IMG/VR virus record: IMGVR_UViG_3300016476_000531
Location: 1 to 31,339 of that record
Source: a virus
Taxonomy: Duplodnaviria > Caudoviricetes
Length of the DNA: 31,339 bases
Strand: one strand, 5' to 3'
Shown here: positions 16,877-25,908 of the stretch, one piece after another
How positions within the stretch are numbered: the first letter of the stretch is position 1
Layout: every line of letters starts with the position of its first letter
Notes under the pieces: generated by a model
Database searches by the model: none
What the model saw: only the letters and a program-made list of their open reading frames with translations
Told to the model about the DNA's origin: nothing
Made by a program: the position numbers and the translations under genes

Positions 16877-17584
16877 TCAGGCGCGCCGGTAGTAGCCCAG
16901 CACTTTGCCGACCACGGCAATCTCCTCGCCGTCCTTCATGTCAGCTTCTTTGATCAGAATGGGTTTGTGTGCGGAGTTGGTACTGTCTGGCGCCAAGTGC
17001 AGTGTGCCTTTCGGACTGGCTTTCACAACCTTGATTGTGGCCTCAAAGAGACCTGCTCTGCGGCGCTCCACAATCACAACATCTTCGGGTTGCACGGGCC
17101 CGTGCCATTCCACGCAGACGGCATATTCGCCAGGCTTCGCGCGACGGTCAATGGAGTCGCCTTGAATCTCCAGCGCGAACTGGAGATGCCGAGGGAAACG
17201 GGCGTCCGCCGAAATGGGCAGCGTAGAGAGTTCGCTTTCGGGCGCATAGGTCTCCTGCCATATGCCGGCCCGCACAAATCCTTTCACAGGCATTCCATCC
17301 CCGTCAACGATCGGCGCTAATTTGGTGGAGTGTTCACTTCTGGGCTGAACAGTTTTGCGGCCCGTGAGGAGATATTCAAGAGAAATATTAAAGTATTTAG
17401 CATAACGCATGGCTGCGTCGCGCCGTAACCCTCGAGAACCATTCTCGTGCGCCGCATAGGTCTGATAATTCACACCCATAGCCTGCGCTGCCTCTGCGGC
17501 TGTGGCGAATATTCTCTCGCGTGCCGCCTTCAAGCGTTCGTGAACTTCCATATTGTCATGCTCTTGCGCTAATTCCTCCGTCAT
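16877..17584 (-). CDS. cI: CI-type repressor (XRE HTH + S24 autopeptidase)
   Basis: HTH (AEAAQAMGVNYQTYAAHENGSR), Ala-Gly cleavage site (VRAG), catalytic S (GDSI) and K (ATIK). Alternative start at 17551. Confidence 0.92.
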   Translation of the reverse strand: MTEELAQEHDNMEVHERLKAARERIFATAAEAAQAMGVNYQTYAAHENGSRGLRRDAAMRYAKYFNISLEYLLTGRKTVQPRSEHSTKLAPIVDGDGMPVKGFVRAGIWQETYAPESELSTLPISADARFPRHLQFALEIQGDSIDRRAKPGEYAVCVEWHGPVQPEDVVIVERRRAGLFEATIKVVKASPKGTLHLAPDSTNSAHKPILIKEADMKDGEEIAVVGKVLGYYRRA

Positions 17585-20121: not shown

Positions 20122-21264
20122 ATGATCCACCAGATTGACGGGCATCCCTACGCAAACCTCTTTCCCACGATGGGAGACTCTGAGTTTGAAAAGCTGAAGC
20201 AGGACATTCTGGTAAATGGTGTTCGTCAGCCCATCGTCATGTATCAGGGGCTGATCCTCGACGGGCGGCATCGCTTCGCCGCCTGCACCGATCTCCTCAA
20301 GACGTGCCCACAGGTGCAGTTCGAAGGCGATGATGCGGCTGCGCTGGCATTTGTCATCTCGACCAATCTTCACCGCCGCCATCTTGATGAGTCGCAGCGC
20401 GCCTGGGTGGCGAGCAAGTTAGCGAACATGCGGCAGGGGGAGAGGACGGACATTGTGGAAATTTCCACAAAGTCTGTTTCCCAAGCCGATGCCGCCAAGA
20501 TGCTGAACGTCAGCCGAGAGAGTGTGAATAAGGCGAAAGCTGTCCGCGACCACGGCGTGAGAGAACTGCACGAGAAGGTCGAGAAGGGCGAAGTTGCTGT
20601 TTCGGTTGCTTCCAAGATTGCCAAGCTGCCCGAGAGCACGCAGCGCGAGATACTGAAGGACGAGCGCCCGGAGCAGGCCATCAAGAAGGTGGCTCGCGCC
20701 GAGAAGGAAAAGGCACTAGCCGAGAAGACGATCAGTGTCTCGCTCGCATCCGAGGCCCGTCGCTACGGCGTCGTGTACGCAGATCCGCCCTGGCGCTTTG
20801 AGACCTTCAGCGAGAACGGCATGGACCGCTCGGCTGACAACCATTACCCCACGATGGATCTCGAGGCGATTAAGGCCCTGCCGATCCCCGCGGCGGCAGA
20901 CAGCGTTCTCTATCTCTGGGCCACGGCACCTATGCTTCCCGAAGCTCTGGAGGTCATGCAGGCCTGGGGCTTCACCTACAAGAGCCATGCCGTGTGGTCG
21001 AAGGACAGGGCAGGGACGGGATACTGGTTCCGCAACAAGCACGAGCTGCTGCTGGTCGGCACCAGGGGCAATGTCCCGGCGCCGGCGCCTGGCACGCAGC
21101 TTCCCTCGATCTTGGAATCGCCTCTGGGGCGTCACAGCGAAAAGCCCGCGCTCTTTGCAGAGATGATCGAGCAGCTCTTCCCGAACACCCCAAAGATCGA
21201 ATTGTTCTGCCGCTCTCCGCGCGCCGGCTGGGCTGCTTACGGCAATGAAGCGGAGGCCGCATGA
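20122..21264 (+). CDS. ParB-N domain fused to MT-A70-family N6-adenine methyltransferase
   Basis: HPYANLFP...PIV...ILDGRHRF...NLHRRHL at the N-terminus. VVYADPPW, HYPTM, WGF.YK, HELLL.G, HSEKP and IELFCR at the C-terminus. Confidence 0.9.
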   Translation: MIHQIDGHPYANLFPTMGDSEFEKLKQDILVNGVRQPIVMYQGLILDGRHRFAACTDLLKTCPQVQFEGDDAAALAFVISTNLHRRHLDESQRAWVASKLANMRQGERTDIVEISTKSVSQADAAKMLNVSRESVNKAKAVRDHGVRELHEKVEKGEVAVSVASKIAKLPESTQREILKDERPEQAIKKVARAEKEKALAEKTISVSLASEARRYGVVYADPPWRFETFSENGMDRSADNHYPTMDLEAIKALPIPAAADSVLYLWATAPMLPEALEVMQAWGFTYKSHAVWSKDRAGTGYWFRNKHELLLVGTRGNVPAPAPGTQLPSILESPLGRHSEKPALFAEMIEQLFPNTPKIELFCRSPRAGWAAYGNEAEAA

Positions 21265-21778: not shown

Positions 21779-22376
21779 TGCAGTGGACCGAGGACGCCAT
21801 TCGGAACGCCTTGGACGGCCATTTCTACACGATCAGCCACGAAGGCCGGGTCGCGGTCGTCGACACGCTGGGAGGGCTCTCAAGCCCGGCCGCGGCACAT
21901 ACCGCGCTTGGGATTCCGACGCGCTTCGAGAGTTGTGGAAGCTGAAGCGTGATGGCCACACGATCGACGAGATCGAAGGCATCACGGGCCGTGACCGCCG
22001 CAGCATCTCGGAGCAGTGGAGCAAGCGCCGCCGGTGGGCACCGGCATTGATTGCCATGACCAACATGCCGGCGAACATCTACGACATCCGCCGCGTGGTT
22101 TGCGCCGTCTACCAAGTCGGCAAGCACGACTTCTGCAGCCACACGCGCATCCGCAAGGTCTGCGACGCCCGTCAGGTCTACTACTGGATCGCCCGGAAGT
22201 TCACCACCCGGTCAACGACGCAAATCGGGGAGGCGGCTGGAGGGCGGGACCACAGCACGATCTTGCATGGCGTGGAGAAGGTGTCGGCTAATTACGAATA
22301 CTTCCGCCCGCATATCGAGCTCGCGCTGATGGATCTCGGCCTCGAGATGCCGAAGCAGGGAAGGGCGGCGGCATGA
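21778..22376 (+). CDS. DnaA domain-IV (C-terminal HTH) protein, with an apparent -1 frameshift near 21870
   Basis: C-terminal R..V.DARQV.YWIARKFT.RS.TQIG...GGRDHSTILHG. The ATG with AAGGAGG RBS at 21778 is out of frame with this domain. Confidence 0.75.
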
Positions 22377-23221
22377 GCTATTCAGCAATGGCATGGGCTC
22401 GCGGAATCAAGACTGGGTCTCCTACGGCCAAGTCGGTTCTGTTGGCCATTGCCAACTATGCGGATGAGGAAGGCATTTGCTGGCCATCCCAGGACCAGCT
22501 CGCCGATGACACCGAGCTGTCGCGCCATTCCATCATGCGCGCCATCGATCATCTCGAGGAGCTTGGGCTCCTGAGCCGGGAGCGCCGCCACCGCAAAGAT
22601 GGGTCAAGATCTTCTGACCTCATCATGCTTGACCTAAGTAGCACAGTGCTACGTAGCACACAGCAACGTAGCAATGAGCAACGTAGCACACAGCAACAGC
22701 CAAAGTCGCACAGTGCTACAGCAGAACCTATCACTGAACCTTCAAATATACCTTCTCGAGCGCGCGGTGCGAAACCGAAGGGCGAGGAACACCTCGCCTT
22801 TGATGCCTACAACGATCTCGCCTCGGAGCTTGGTCTGGCAAAGGCCCAGGCTCTTACCGATGAGCGCAAAACCCGCATCCGCCAGCGCCTCAACGACTGC
22901 GGCGGCCTCACCGGGTGGTTGGATGCCCTTGGCAAGATCAGGGGCAGCCCGTTCCTGTGCGGCGACAATGACCGCGGCTGGAAAGCCAGCCTCGACTTCC
23001 TGCTTCAGAAAGCCAGTTTCACTCGCCTCATGGAGGGCAGTTATGACAGATCAAACGCCAATCGACGGGTTCAGCAAGGTTCAAAACCCTCTCTCCGTGA
23101 CGGGTTCGCAATGCTCGATGCCGTCACTGACGAAGCCATCCGCCGCGCAGATGGACACGGCGCGGAAGGCAGCGAAGAAGATTTTGGGTGGATACCCGGA
23201 CTACGGCAAAGCGCCGCCTGA
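22373..23221 (+). CDS. Phage replication initiator (O-like, N-terminal wHTH)
   Basis: AKSVLLAIANYADEEG.CWPSQ..LA.DT.LSR.S...L.E.GL. Internal iterons. C-terminal SPFL.G.N.RGWKASLDFL..EG.Y domain. Confidence 0.88.
   Translation: MSYSAMAWARGIKTGSPTAKSVLLAIANYADEEGICWPSQDQLADDTELSRHSIMRAIDHLEELGLLSRERRHRKDGSRSSDLIMLDLSSTVLRSTQQRSNEQRSTQQQPKSHSATAEPITEPSNIPSRARGAKPKGEEHLAFDAYNDLASELGLAKAQALTDERKTRIRQRLNDCGGLTGWLDALGKIRGSPFLCGDNDRGWKASLDFLLQKASFTRLMEGSYDRSNANRRVQQGSKPSLRDGFAMLDAVTDEAIRRADGHGAEGSEEDFGWIPGLRQSAA
22637..22718 (+). repeat. Replication origin iterons (15-bp units)
   Basis: AGTAGCACAGTGCTA, CGTAGCACACAGCAA, CGTAGCAATGAGCAA and CGTAGCACACAGCAA in tandem (22637-22696), plus AGTCGCACAGTGCTA at 22704. 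Confidence 0.8.
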
Positions 23222-23687
23222 GTACGTCATCAACTTTGCGGAAGCCTTGTCATATTTGACGGCGGAAGAGATGGCGGCGGTGACGGACCCTCGCAACGGC
23301 GTTGCCAGCCGCTGCCAGTATCTGCCGACCATTGCCGATCTCCACGCCTTGCTGCGGGAACGAAAGGAAAAAGCCGAGCAATTCAAGCCAGCCCATACGA
23401 ACTACCGCCGCCTAAACGAAGACAAAGGCCCGTGGGATCAAGAAACGGACTTCGAGCGCAAGCGCCGAGTGGTCACGGAGTGCTTGGGCTACAACCCCGA
23501 TGACCGTGGGAGGCCCGCCGAGAAGCGCATTTTCACGGCCCCGGACGAGGCCACTGTCCGCAATTTGAAGCTCAAGACGCCGCCCGCTGGCCCGTCGCCA
23601 TACCTGATCGCGTTGCTTCAGGAACAGGGCTGGCCGTTTATCCCGACTGAGAACAAAACAGAAACGAATGATGGGCAAGCAGCATGA
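23043..23687 (+). CDS. Replication accessory / helicase-loader-like protein (start uncertain: 23043, 23118 or 23151)
   Basis: ILGGYPD...GVASRCQYLPTIADL motif, directly after the initiator. GGAGG RBS before the ATG at 23043. Confidence 0.65.
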   Translation: MTDQTPIDGFSKVQNPLSVTGSQCSMPSLTKPSAAQMDTARKAAKKILGGYPDYGKAPPEYVINFAEALSYLTAEEMAAVTDPRNGVASRCQYLPTIADLHALLRERKEKAEQFKPAHTNYRRLNEDKGPWDQETDFERKRRVVTECLGYNPDDRGRPAEKRIFTAPDEATVRNLKLKTPPAGPSPYLIALLQEQGWPFIPTENKTETNDGQAA

Positions 23688-23947
23688 CGCAGACTCTTTC
23701 CAATTCCGCCGGCCACCTCAAGAGCCTCATTGAACGCATCGAGCGTCTCGAGGAAGACAAGGCCGCCATCTCTGCCGACATCAAGGAGGTCTACCAGGAG
23801 GCTAAATCCACCGGCTTCGACACCAAGATCATGCGGCTGCTCGTCAGGCTCCGCAAGAAGTCGGCAGAGGAGCGCCTTGAGGAAGAAACTCTGCTCGAGG
23901 TCTACATGAATGCCATGGGCATGACACCGCAAGAGGAGTCCGCATGA
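23684..23947 (+). CDS. gapR: GapR / DUF2312 nucleoid-associated protein
   Basis: LKSLIERIERLEEDKAAISADIKEVYQEAKSTGFDTKIMR.LVRLRK...R.EEE.LL..Y..A.GM. Confidence 0.92.
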   Translation: MTQTLSNSAGHLKSLIERIERLEEDKAAISADIKEVYQEAKSTGFDTKIMRLLVRLRKKSAEERLEEETLLEVYMNAMGMTPQEESA

Positions 23948-24144
23948 CAGACTCCCTCTTCCGCAAGGCCATTGAGATCGCCGGCAGCGAAACCCGCCTC
24001 GCCAAGGCCATCGGCTTCTCTCAGCACGCCGTCTGGAGCGCCAGGCGGAAGGGCAAGCCATCTGCCGAGATGGCCGCCGCGATCGACAAGTTCACCGAAG
24101 GCAGGGTCTCCAAGCAAGAGCTCAGGCCAGACCTGTGGGGCTAA
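23944..24144 (+). CDS. Cro/YdaS-like HTH protein
   Basis: AIEIAGSETRLAKAIG.SQ.AV...I...T.G.VS..ELRPD. Confidence 0.85.
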   Translation: MTDSLFRKAIEIAGSETRLAKAIGFSQHAVWSARRKGKPSAEMAAAIDKFTEGRVSKQELRPDLWG

Positions 24145-24186
24145 CACAGCGATGTATTAAACCATTGATGTGTAACGGCAATCCCC

Positions 24187-24216
24187 TTGTTTGCAGAAAA
24201 AGTTCTTGTTATGTTC
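24187..24216 (+). promoter_or_regulatory. Putative late promoter with alphaproteobacterial LexA (SOS) box
   Basis: TTGTTT(24187)-N17-TATGTT(24210). GTTC-N7-GTTC = GTTCTTGTTATGTTC at 24202-24216 covers the -10. Confidence 0.7.
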
Positions 24217-24227
24217 CACGTGAAACG
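24212..24227. promoter_or_regulatory. Chromosomal-type parS site
   Basis: TGTTCCACGTGAAACG versus the consensus TGTTNCACGTGAAACA, with one terminal mismatch. Confidence 0.7.
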
Positions 24228-24238
24228 TGGGGAACCTC

Positions 24239-24616
24239 ATGCCTGCCGGGCGGCCGAGCAAATACGACCCGAAGTACTGCGATGAAGTGATCAAGGTGAT
24301 GGGCGAGGGCTTGTCGCTCACCGCTTTCGCAGGCCGGATCGGCGTTGACCGCTCCACGATCGATGAATGGCGGAACAATTTCCCCGAATTTTCCCTAGCT
24401 TGCCGTAAAGGCCAAGCAAAACGCACCGAGCGCCTTGAGATGGGCATGCTTGATCCTGACATGCCGGGCCCGGCCGTCAATGCCCGCCGCTTCGCGCTTG
24501 CCAATGCTGCGCCAGAGGAATGGCGCGAGAAGCAGCAGCTCGAGCACACAGGCGCCGAGGGCCAGCCTCTCAGCATCGGCGTCCAGTTCCTCACGCCTCT
24601 GAGGCCTGAGCCGTGA
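24239..24616 (+). CDS. terS: Terminase small subunit
   Basis: MPAGRPSKYDPKYC...G.S...A..IGV.RST..EW...FPEF..A. Directly upstream of TerL. Confidence 0.88.
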   Translation: MPAGRPSKYDPKYCDEVIKVMGEGLSLTAFAGRIGVDRSTIDEWRNNFPEFSLACRKGQAKRTERLEMGMLDPDMPGPAVNARRFALANAAPEEWREKQQLEHTGAEGQPLSIGVQFLTPLRPEP

Positions 24617-25908
24617 ACCAGATGAGCCCGATAAAGAAGGGCGAGTTGCTGGTCAATCTCCCGGCCAAGTTCGAGCCGCTCACGCGTCCCGCCAGGTACA
24701 AGGGCGCTCACGGGGGAAGAGGCTCAGGCAAGTCACACAGCTTCGCCACGCTCTGCATCCTGCGCTGCATTCAGTCTCAAACCCGCGTGGTCTGCATCCG
24801 CGAAGTCCAGAACACCATCCGCGATTCCGTGCGCCAGCTCCTTGTGGACAAGATCAACGAGATGTCGCTCGGCTCCCTGTTCGAGGTGCTGGAGACCGAG
24901 ATCCGCGCCAAGAATGGATCGCTCATCATCTTCCGCGGCATGAAGGACATGAATGCGATCGGCATTCAGTCTCTGGAAGGCTTCGACATCGCCTGGGTGG
25001 AGGAGGCGCAGAGCCTCTCGCAGCGGTCCTTCGACGTTCTGCGCCCCACAATCCGCAAGCCTGGCAGCGAGCTTTGGTTCTCGTGGAACCCAAGGCGCAA
25101 GGCTGATCCGGTGGATGCCTTCTTCCGCGGCCCCGTCAAGAACCCGGACGCGATCTGCGTCGAGATGAACTGGGAGGACAACCCTTTCCTCCCGACCGAG
25201 CTCCTGCAGGAAAAGTCCTTCGACTATCTCCGCGACCCGGTAAAGGCGCAGCACATCTGGGGCGGGGGCTATGAGGTTCTGACCGAGGGCGCCTATTACG
25301 GACGGGACATGGTCGCAGCCGAGACCGAGGGTCGCGTCACCCGCGTGCCGCATGACCGATCGGCTGACGTCTACGCGTCGTGGGATCTTGGCATTGGCGA
25401 TGCCATGGCCATCTGGACGTTCCAGGTCATCAACAACGAATGGCACTGGCTCCACTACATCGAGGGCACCGGCAAGGGCCTCGACGCCTATGTGGACCTG
25501 ATCAAGGCGCTGCCCTATCCGGTCCATGAGCATCTCCTGCCGCACGACGCGCAGGCCCGCGAGCTCCAGACCGGCAAGAGCCGCAAGCAATTCCTTGAGG
25601 AGCGCGGCCTCAAGACCCGCATCGTTCCCAATCACCGGGTTGACGATGGCATCAACGCTGTCCGAACTGCCTTCAACCGCTTCTGGATTGACGAGAAGAA
25701 CTGCGAGCGCGGCATCGACTGCTTGCGGAACTATCGCTCCGAGTTCTCCGACAAGCTCCAGACCATCAAATCGCAGCCCCTTCACGATTGGGCCTCGCAC
25801 GGCGCCGACGCCCTCCGCATTGGCGTGATGGGCATCAACGAAACCTTTCTCAAGACCCGGACTGATTGGGGCAAGCCTCTCGTCCGCGCCGGCGCGGGAG
25901 TCGCATGA
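24613..25908 (+). CDS. terL: Terminase large subunit (PBSX-like)
   Basis: Walker A GGRGSGKS, Walker B IAWVEEA, nuclease motifs WDLG and SHGADALR. Confidence 0.96.
   Translation: MNQMSPIKKGELLVNLPAKFEPLTRPARYKGAHGGRGSGKSHSFATLCILRCIQSQTRVVCIREVQNTIRDSVRQLLVDKINEMSLGSLFEVLETEIRAKNGSLIIFRGMKDMNAIGIQSLEGFDIAWVEEAQSLSQRSFDVLRPTIRKPGSELWFSWNPRRKADPVDAFFRGPVKNPDAICVEMNWEDNPFLPTELLQEKSFDYLRDPVKAQHIWGGGYEVLTEGAYYGRDMVAAETEGRVTRVPHDRSADVYASWDLGIGDAMAIWTFQVINNEWHWLHYIEGTGKGLDAYVDLIKALPYPVHEHLLPHDAQARELQTGKSRKQFLEERGLKTRIVPNHRVDDGINAVRTAFNRFWIDEKNCERGIDCLRNYRSEFSDKLQTIKSQPLHDWASHGADALRIGVMGINETFLKTRTDWGKPLVRAGAGVA

What the first reader, a model, noticed from the sequence alone, without database searches (positions are those of the whole stretch)
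24187..24238. Host LexA box and chromosomal parS site interlocked on the packaging-operon promoter
Seen: in the short intergenic gap before terS, GTTCTTGTTATGTTC (24202-24216) overlaps TGTTCCACGTGAAACG (24212-24227) by 5 nt, over a predicted -10 (TATGTT) and start site. Known: GTTC-N7-GTTC is the alphaproteobacterial LexA box, and TGTTNCACGTGAAACA is the widely conserved chromosomal parS loaded by host ParB-CTP. Inference: virion assembly genes may be gated directly by host LexA, a second SOS lock besides CI cleavage (I see no Q-type antiterminator in this window). Host ParB may compete for the same bases to silence late genes, segregate an unintegrated phage circle, or position DNA near the pac region. 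A combined SOS/centromere switch on a phage late promoter would be an unusual system.
Basis: partly seen in the sequence, partly recalled or inferred. Interest (0 to 1): 0.85.

Follow-up and report, generated by a model that had tools for sequence, protein, structure and literature searches.

The report
SOS-gated packaging promoter with add-on parS
Just before its DNA-packaging genes, a phage with an integrase and its own repressor carries a close match to the bacterial DNA-damage repressor (LexA) site, which likely keeps that predicted promoter off until damage occurs, and an overlapping copy of the bacterial chromosome-partition site (parS), which likely binds host ParB but is missing from its relatives, so the overlap is probably a recent add-on rather than an established two-way switch.

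Summary
Both motifs are exactly where stated, in the 94-bp gap before terS of a temperate, probably alphaproteobacterial podophage.
- LexA box: the window's best match to a matrix from real recA/lexA promoters (22 bits; 0 of 200 simulations). The closest relative keeps it.
- parS: identical to sites beside parAB/mnmEG in Hyphomicrobiales, but absent from this promoter in 6 of 6 close relatives.
- Overlap: no second locus with both motifs in three sets of terminase loci. In IMG/VR the overlap occurs at chance rate (17 vs 14); the two motifs share TGTTC.
Best reading: a LexA-repressed, IHF-assisted late promoter with a recently gained host-type parS. Both halves have precedents (GIL01 P3, SaPI operon I; phi29), and this scan has noted each on other DNA. 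Most novel reading left open: LexA masks the parS in the lysogen and uncovers it on induction (about 13%). No binding or expression was tested.

The parts
24158..24170 (-). IHF-type site (WATCAA-N4-TTR, one mismatch at W), about 58 nt upstream of the predicted start site; flanked by imperfect ACACAT-N2-ATGTGT repeats at 24144-24157 and 24160-24173
   Evidence: Present upstream of terS in 6 of 6 close relatives with upstream DNA (2 strict, 4 with the same mismatch). Only 2 relaxed matches in the window, 0.89 expected. Consensus from PMC8942017 passage. Binding inferred.
24187..24192 (+). predicted -35 (TTGTTT), weak
   Evidence: 17 nt from the -10; similar spacing in L001-L004; not called by the consensus scan
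24202..24216 (+). alphaproteobacterial LexA-type operator over the spacer and -10
   Evidence: top matrix site, 22.0 bits, 0 of 200 simulations; kept in L001/L126, 18.7 bits
24207..24215 (+). predicted extended -10 (TG-N-TATGTT); start site would fall near 24222-24223, inside the parS
   Evidence: conserved in L001; inferred, not mapped
24212..24227 (.). host-chromosome-type parS, sharing TGTTC with the LexA box
   Evidence: the same 15-mer pattern lies within 1.5 kb of parA/parB/mnmE/mnmG in 20 of 30 fetched Hyphomicrobiales loci; absent from this promoter in 6 of 6 close relatives
24239..24616 (+). terminase small subunit, first gene downstream (purine-rich RBS 24229-24234)
   Evidence: PHROG 309, E 4e-23
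24613..25908 (+). terminase large subunit (PBSX-type best hits), followed by portal, scaffold and major capsid
23651..23665 (-). second, weaker SOS-type box just upstream of gapR (inside the 3' end of the preceding ORF)
   Evidence: 16.4 bits, 19 of 200 simulations reach it; L126 has an 18.3-bit intergenic box at the same place although the upstream DNA does not align
23684..24144 (+). GapR-like gene and Cro/YdaS-like HTH gene directly upstream; the HTH is a candidate late regulator
   Evidence: Pfam PF10073 and PF15943; role inferred
16877..17584 (-). CI-type repressor (HTH + peptidase S24), the phage's own RecA-sensitive lock
   Evidence: Pfam PF00717 and PF01381
7656..8945 (-). tyrosine integrase (temperate life style)
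   Evidence: PHROG 1; plasmid-collection hits all alphaproteobacterial, 8 of 8

Best explanation
The 94-bp gap before terS is likely the late (packaging and head) promoter of this temperate, probably alphaproteobacterial phage; host LexA would repress it through the box over its predicted -10, an IHF-type site upstream would bend the DNA, and a host-type parS that was probably gained recently would load host ParB onto phage DNA. Steps. (1) Shown: the motifs, their order and their distribution in relatives. (2) Inferred: in the lysogen CI blocks early transcription and LexA blocks this internal promoter; RecA-driven cleavage lifts both. No terminator is predicted before terS, so read-through or titration of LexA by replicating genomes could supply late RNA in an undamaged cell. 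(3) Inferred: IHF helps an activator/RNA polymerase or terminase assembly. (4) Inferred: the parS is an independent, phi29-like accessory that positions or segregates free phage DNA. It sits on the LexA box because both contain TGTTC, so a -10 ending in TGTTCCA is already half a parS. LexA and ParB would exclude each other physically, but this would be a by-product, not a conserved switch.
For: LexA box is the top matrix site, fits the Caulobacter consensus quoted in PMC13384398 with one flanking mismatch, and is kept in L001, where the DNA just downstream is unrelated. Second SOS-type box before gapR in both phages. Candidate host-type genomes have lexA, 5 of 5, and such boxes lie at their lexA loci and at 21 of 32 recA upstream regions. 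IHF-type site in 6 of 6 close relatives. The parS 14-mer is about 9-fold more frequent in viral contigs than a swapped control (about 5800 vs about 670 stretches) and equals origin-proximal host sites. The overlap occurs at chance frequency (17 vs 14.3). The phage's own ParB-like fusion does not match host ParB's recognition helix, and L126 has the fusion without a parS.
Against: The LexA box is in only 1 of 6 close relatives, 1 of 111 terS loci and 3 of 66 genome-borne terL loci, with no enrichment, so it rests on two phages plus near-identical strains. TATGTT is itself part of the box, so conservation of the promoter partly explains conservation of the box. The promoter was not called by the scan. 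The host is not identified below class or order. Against 'mere by-product': where the overlap occurs elsewhere its spacer looks LexA-like more often than expected (10 of 16 vs 32%, p about 0.01, post hoc), and two such contigs are alphaproteobacterial.
Confidence: 0.55

Rival explanations
1. SOS-gated centromere. LexA covers the left half of the parS while the phage is integrated, sparing the host an ectopic centromere. On induction LexA is cleaved, and host ParB loads on the excising or replicating phage DNA at the moment packaging genes turn on. The overlap is selected.
For: The 5-nt overlap makes simultaneous binding implausible (sequence; inference). The phage is temperate. The same register occurs in unrelated alphaproteobacterial viral contigs L056 and L078 (a provirus), and before a terS-like gene in L040. 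LexA-like spacer excess, p about 0.01 post hoc. One near-identical strain has a change that completes the parS consensus (single contig, depth 3.3).
Against: No co-conservation in relatives. Overall overlap at chance level. 0 of 401 alphaproteobacterial genomes searched carry the composite. The promoter of L056's downstream gene has neither motif in 5 of 5 plasmid relatives.
Confidence: 0.13
2. One reading: ParB competes with LexA/RNA polymerase and silences late genes, a second host lock on the promoter.
For: The parS covers the predicted start site. P. aeruginosa ParB represses two genes with intergenic parS upstream (PMC7022226 passage). An unrelated terS relative (L765) also has an exact parS 36 nt before the aligned terS start.
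Against: ParB loss changes few neighbouring genes in B. subtilis and several other species. parS absent from relatives' promoters. Only 5 of 125 non-redundant phage parS loci have a terminase as the next gene, with no clear excess over my rough 2-3% expectation.
Confidence: 0.08
3. The parS is a chance product of leader remodelling and has no selected role; only the LexA box and the IHF-type site matter.
For: Absent in 6 of 6 relatives; no exact parS core in 5 related genomes. Relatives' longer leader holds a TCCACG motif from which a deletion could make the core (inference). About 1 in 9 such matches in viral contigs is background.
Against: The extra bases needed have a probability near 3e-5 per site. 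The site is intergenic and exact to host sites. Near-identical strains show no listed loss.
Confidence: 0.14
4. The GTTC repeat is not a host LexA site: it is a by-product of the -10, or is read by a phage protein (CI or the adjacent Cro-like HTH), and the IHF-type site serves packaging initiation rather than transcription.
For: The bare pattern is at chance level. Most relatives lack it; L002-L004 have another operator-like repeat there. A role of IHF at lambda cos is recalled, not confirmed by my look-up.
Against: Matrix score and second box. No similar repeat among those listed for the cI-cro region.
Confidence: 0.1

Closest known systems
Bacillus thuringiensis tectivirus GIL01 late promoter P3 (PMC6182141; abstract and Discussion read)
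   Same: Host LexA boxes on the promoter of virion genes; an upstream site for an activating factor.
   Different: GIL01 has no phage repressor and needs gp7 and gp6. This phage has CI and an integrase, one alphaproteobacterial-type box, and no parS is described at P3 in what I read.
SaPI operon I (PMC3152322, passages)
   Same: A LexA-regulated operon that encodes terS.
   Different: SaPI is a helper-dependent satellite of Staphylococcus; here it is an autonomous phage's own late operon.
Bacillus phage phi29/Nf parS sites used with host Spo0J (PMC2731898 and PMC9437464, passages)
   Same: Host-type parS on a phage with no cognate partition cassette; phi29 also carries sites for a second host regulator (Spo0A).
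   Different: phi29 is virulent, has five parS and uses spore entrapment. Here there is one parS, a temperate phage, a host class not known to sporulate (recalled), and overlap with a LexA box.
Chromosomal parS of Hyphomicrobiales beside mnmE/mnmG/parAB
   Same: Identical sequence, including the terminal G variant.
   Different: Not at an origin; no parA or specificity-matched parB in the window.
IHF sites at phage promoters and at lambda cos (role recalled; consensus from PMC8942017 passage)
   Same: Consensus-type site shortly upstream of terS.
   Different: Whether it serves transcription or packaging here is untested.

Membership tests
Alphaproteobacterial LexA operator | GTTC-N7-GTTC with LexA-type spacer | tested here: met
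Alphaproteobacterial LexA operator | overlaps promoter elements | tested here: inconclusive
   covers the predicted -10; promoter not called by the scan and not mapped
Alphaproteobacterial LexA operator | host is an alphaproteobacterium with this LexA type | tested here: inconclusive
   GapR, integrase and terL hits point to Alphaproteobacteria; candidate genomes have lexA and such boxes; actual host unknown
Alphaproteobacterial LexA operator | conserved at orthologous promoters | tested here: inconclusive
   1 of 6 close relatives (the closest); 1 of 111 terS loci
Alphaproteobacterial LexA operator | LexA binding and SOS induction | not testable with these tools
   needs EMSA and reporter
Chromosomal-type parS | 16-bp palindrome matching the consensus and real host sites | tested here: met
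Chromosomal-type parS | part of a ParABS locus (cognate parA/parB or origin nearby) | tested here: not met
   no parA among 53 ORFs; the ParB-like/MT-A70 fusion lacks the host-type recognition helix
Chromosomal-type parS | ParB-CTP loading | not testable with these tools
   needs BLI or ChIP
phi29-type use of host ParB | parS kept among related phages | tested here: not met
   0 of 6 at this promoter; 0 exact cores in 5 related genomes, 4 of them incomplete
GIL01-type LexA-held lysogeny | no dedicated phage repressor | tested here: not met
   CI-type HTH + S24 protein and integrase present
IHF binding site | WATCAANNNNTTR consensus | tested here: inconclusive
   one mismatch in the window and 4 relatives, strict in 2
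IHF binding site | IHF binding and bending | not testable with these tools
   needs EMSA or footprint
Conserved LexA/parS composite switch (proposed) | co-conservation and enrichment of the overlap | tested here: not met
   weak contrary hint

The most novel reading that the evidence does not exclude
A host repressor hides a host centromere: LexA masks the phage's parS while the prophage is integrated and uncovers it on SOS induction, so host ParB-CTP loads only on induced phage DNA, timed with packaging-gene expression; the same register has arisen independently in other alphaproteobacterial phages (L056, L078, perhaps L040).
Probability: 0.13. Interest if true: 0.8.

Novelty: new variant of a known kind. 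Interest (0 to 1): 0.4.

Why it matters
LexA control of a virion/packaging promoter is known from GIL01 and SaPIs, and host-type parS from phi29; my searches found no paper on either at the late promoter of an alphaproteobacterial temperate phage, or on their overlap. The roughly 9-fold excess of host-type parS in viral contigs suggests that many phages of non-sporulating hosts use host ParB, for an unknown purpose. This 94-bp fragment can be tested directly in Caulobacter or Sinorhizobium. If LexA gates ParB loading, it would explain how an integrating phage can carry a centromere without harming its host. As the evidence stands, the overlap is a lineage-restricted coincidence of two known devices.

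Tried and rejected
- Pattern scan for upstream motif plus LexA box in IMG/VR: 53 stretches, only the known relative is terS-linked in register.
- First genome scan with the close TerL alignment: 0 of 80 candidates confirmed. No close prophage in 241 Aestuariivirgaceae-type genomes (12 matches, 47-53% identity); 1 of 401 order-level genomes had a CI match, 41%. Host therefore not pinned down.
- The ACACAT-N2-ATGTGT repeat as a CI operator: not significant in the window (8 vs 4.8 expected) and absent from the cI-cro gap.
- A sigma-54 promoter: GG/GC spacing does not fit (read by eye).
- One-mismatch parS elsewhere in relatives: L504 and L004 lie in ORFs, L505 is unclear; not counted as conservation.
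- Phage-encoded ParB as the binder: rejected on the alignment.
- GcrA-like activator: present in L502, not detected in the window fragment tested.
- GapR as a host marker for five other overlap contigs: 0 of 5, uninformative for fragments.
- Terminase bias of phage parS: 5 of 125, no matched control, not established.
- No RNA holder listed for this DNA.
- Literature search for the IHF-like motif under 'RTTGAT' gave nothing relevant.
- Rows dropped: duplicate L569; L617 from an unpublished genome left out of the matrix; 50 of 161 terS loci removed as redundant or short; 35 of 160 parS loci likewise; L005/L129 has no upstream DNA.

Full report
Setting. The window is 31.3 kb of a temperate podophage-like genome (GC 62%); the record that holds its CI protein is 40,305 bases. 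It encodes an integrase, a CI-type repressor with an S24 peptidase domain, Cro, a replication initiator, a GapR-like protein, a second Cro-like HTH, then terS, terL, portal, scaffold and capsid. GapR hits are mostly phages of Alphaproteobacteria, all 8 integrase hits in the plasmid collection are alphaproteobacterial, and terL relatives in named genomes are mostly Hyphomicrobiales. The host is therefore inferred to be an alphaproteobacterium; it is not identified further.

Observation. Both motifs are at the stated coordinates and overlap by TGTTC. The gap is 94 bp. A TG-extended -10 lies at 24207-24215 with a weak -35 17 nt upstream; the consensus scan called no promoter and no terminator in 23000-25000.

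LexA box. The bare pattern is expected 0.69 times by chance. I built a matrix from 33 unique sites taken from recA upstream regions (21 of 32 had a GT[TA]C-N7-GTTC site) and six lexA loci of alphaproteobacterial genomes. The site scores 22.0 bits, the highest in the window and at the top of the leave-one-out range of the training sites (4.0-22.6); 0 of 200 simulated windows reach it. The closest relative (TerL 94%, TerS 82%) keeps box and -10 without gaps, while the bases just downstream are unrelated. Both phages have a second box before gapR: 18.3 bits in the relative, 16.4 bits in the window, where 19 of 200 simulations reach that score. Against: the other 5 close relatives lack the box. 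It is not enriched before terminase genes in 66 genome-borne loci (3 of 66) or 111 non-redundant terS loci (1 of 111, the same relative). I put functional LexA repression at about 70%.

parS. The core 14-mer occurs in about 5800 IMG/VR stretches against about 670 for a control with the central two bases swapped (estimates from 2 and 12 of 64 parts), so most phage matches are probably selected. The pattern TGTTCCACGTGRAAC is found in 37 of 401 Hyphomicrobiales genomes, and 20 of 30 fetched sites lie within 1.5 kb of parA, parB, mnmE or mnmG, some with the same terminal G. Host ParB would therefore likely read it. The phage's ParB-like/MT-A70 fusion differs from four host ParBs in the recognition helix described in PMC7383237 (passages) and occurs in the relative without a parS. 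The parS is absent from this promoter in 6 of 6 close relatives, and no exact core is found in 5 related genomes, 4 of them incomplete. Near-identical strains show no listed change in the LexA box; the only listed parS change completes the consensus (one contig, depth 3.3); some differences were not listed. One about 85%-identical contig has one-base gaps in both motifs. One distant terS relative has its own exact parS just before terS, without a LexA box (L765).

The overlap. No other locus has both motifs: none of 63 viral terL loci with enough upstream DNA (of 80), 66 genome loci or 111 terS loci. In IMG/VR, GTTC at the overlapping offset of this parS variant was seen 17 times against 14.3 expected; 0 of 401 alphaproteobacterial genomes hold the composite. 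Because both motifs contain TGTTC, a LexA-covered -10 is the cheapest place to gain a parS. A contrary hint: 10 of 16 such overlaps have a LexA-like spacer against 32% expected (p about 0.01, threshold chosen after the fact), and two are in alphaproteobacterial contigs, one a provirus. For one of them the downstream gene's promoter has neither motif in 5 of 5 plasmid relatives.

What the clade conserves. All 6 close relatives with upstream DNA have a site of the IHF consensus type (PMC8942017, passage) shortly before terS, strict in 2 and with one mismatch in 4 and in the window; its distance to the predicted -10 is kept within 1 nt in the window and L001-L004 (spacing read by eye). It is not common in more distant terS loci (4 of 111). 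I recognised the motif as IHF from memory and then confirmed the consensus. Whether it aids transcription or packaging initiation is open; IHF's role at lambda cos is recalled (my look-up in PMC11868608 returned nothing useful).

Mechanism (inferred). In the lysogen CI blocks early transcription and LexA blocks the internal late promoter; RecA activation removes both. With no predicted terminator upstream, read-through or LexA titration by replicating genomes could open late genes in undamaged cells. The parS would load host ParB on free phage DNA for positioning or segregation. Steric exclusion between LexA and ParB is likely but appears to be a by-product. If it is selected, the more economical direction is LexA masking the parS in the prophage rather than ParB silencing late genes, since chromosomal ParB affects few neighbouring genes (PMC7022226, passages).

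Known systems. GIL01 P3 (PMC6182141, abstract and Discussion), SaPI operon I (PMC3152322, passages), phi29 parS/Spo0J (PMC2731898 and PMC9437464, passages); LexA consensus from PMC13384398 (passage); PMC6473078 passages were read and only confirm GTTC/GAAC motif classes. No supplements were read. Searches listed no paper on a LexA/parS overlap; the library lacks most subscription papers. Earlier notes of this scan report host-type parS beside terminase genes and LexA boxes on late promoters in other genomes, none on the overlap; they were used as leads only.

Verdict. Observation confirmed; interpretation partly supported. New variant of known kinds; interest 0.40. Novel case probability 0.13, interest 0.8 if true.

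Noticed in passing
window 23651-23665; L126 3501-3515: Second SOS-type box just upstream of the phage gapR and Cro-like genes in both phages, although the upstream DNA does not align; suggests SOS-linked expression of a phage GapR.
   Followed up: partly
L002-L004, upstream of terS: In place of the LexA box these relatives carry GTGAY-N10-GTTAC over the promoter spacer, and tandem ACACAT-N2-ATGTGT repeats around the IHF-type site; possibly another operator.
   Followed up: no
L001-L004, L006 leader before terS: Relatives share a roughly 80-110 nt leader with a TCCACG-containing motif; the window has a leader of about 16 nt, so the parS may have arisen with a deletion.
   Followed up: no
window 20122-21264: ParB-like N-terminal domain plus HTH fused to an MT-A70 methyltransferase; also in L126.
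   Followed up: partly
L078 2501-2525; L056 2501-2525; L040 1702-1726: Same LexA/parS register in unrelated viral contigs: in a provirus before a DUF1902-like gene, before a DUF5131 gene, and before a DUF5681 terS-like gene.
   Followed up: partly
L007, L071, L102: Small contigs with a parS directly before a microvirus-type major capsid gene (PHROG 514 for L007).
   Followed up: no
L765, 36 nt before the aligned terS start: Independent exact parS immediately before a terS homologue (55% identity), no LexA box.
   Followed up: partly
L508, L512, L515, L545, L563: Rhizobiaceae-type genomes with a terL (some with a terS-like gene) just downstream of a LexA-boxed host-like gene of about 275 aa, without an obvious phage early region in view.
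   Followed up: no
L126 4005-4472: A 156-aa gene without Pfam match is inserted between the Cro-like gene and the terS promoter in the closest relative.
   Followed up: no
window 21783-22376; L502 1340-1885: DnaA C-terminal HTH protein in the early operon of the window; L502 has a GcrA homologue in its early operon. Candidate late activators.
   Followed up: partly
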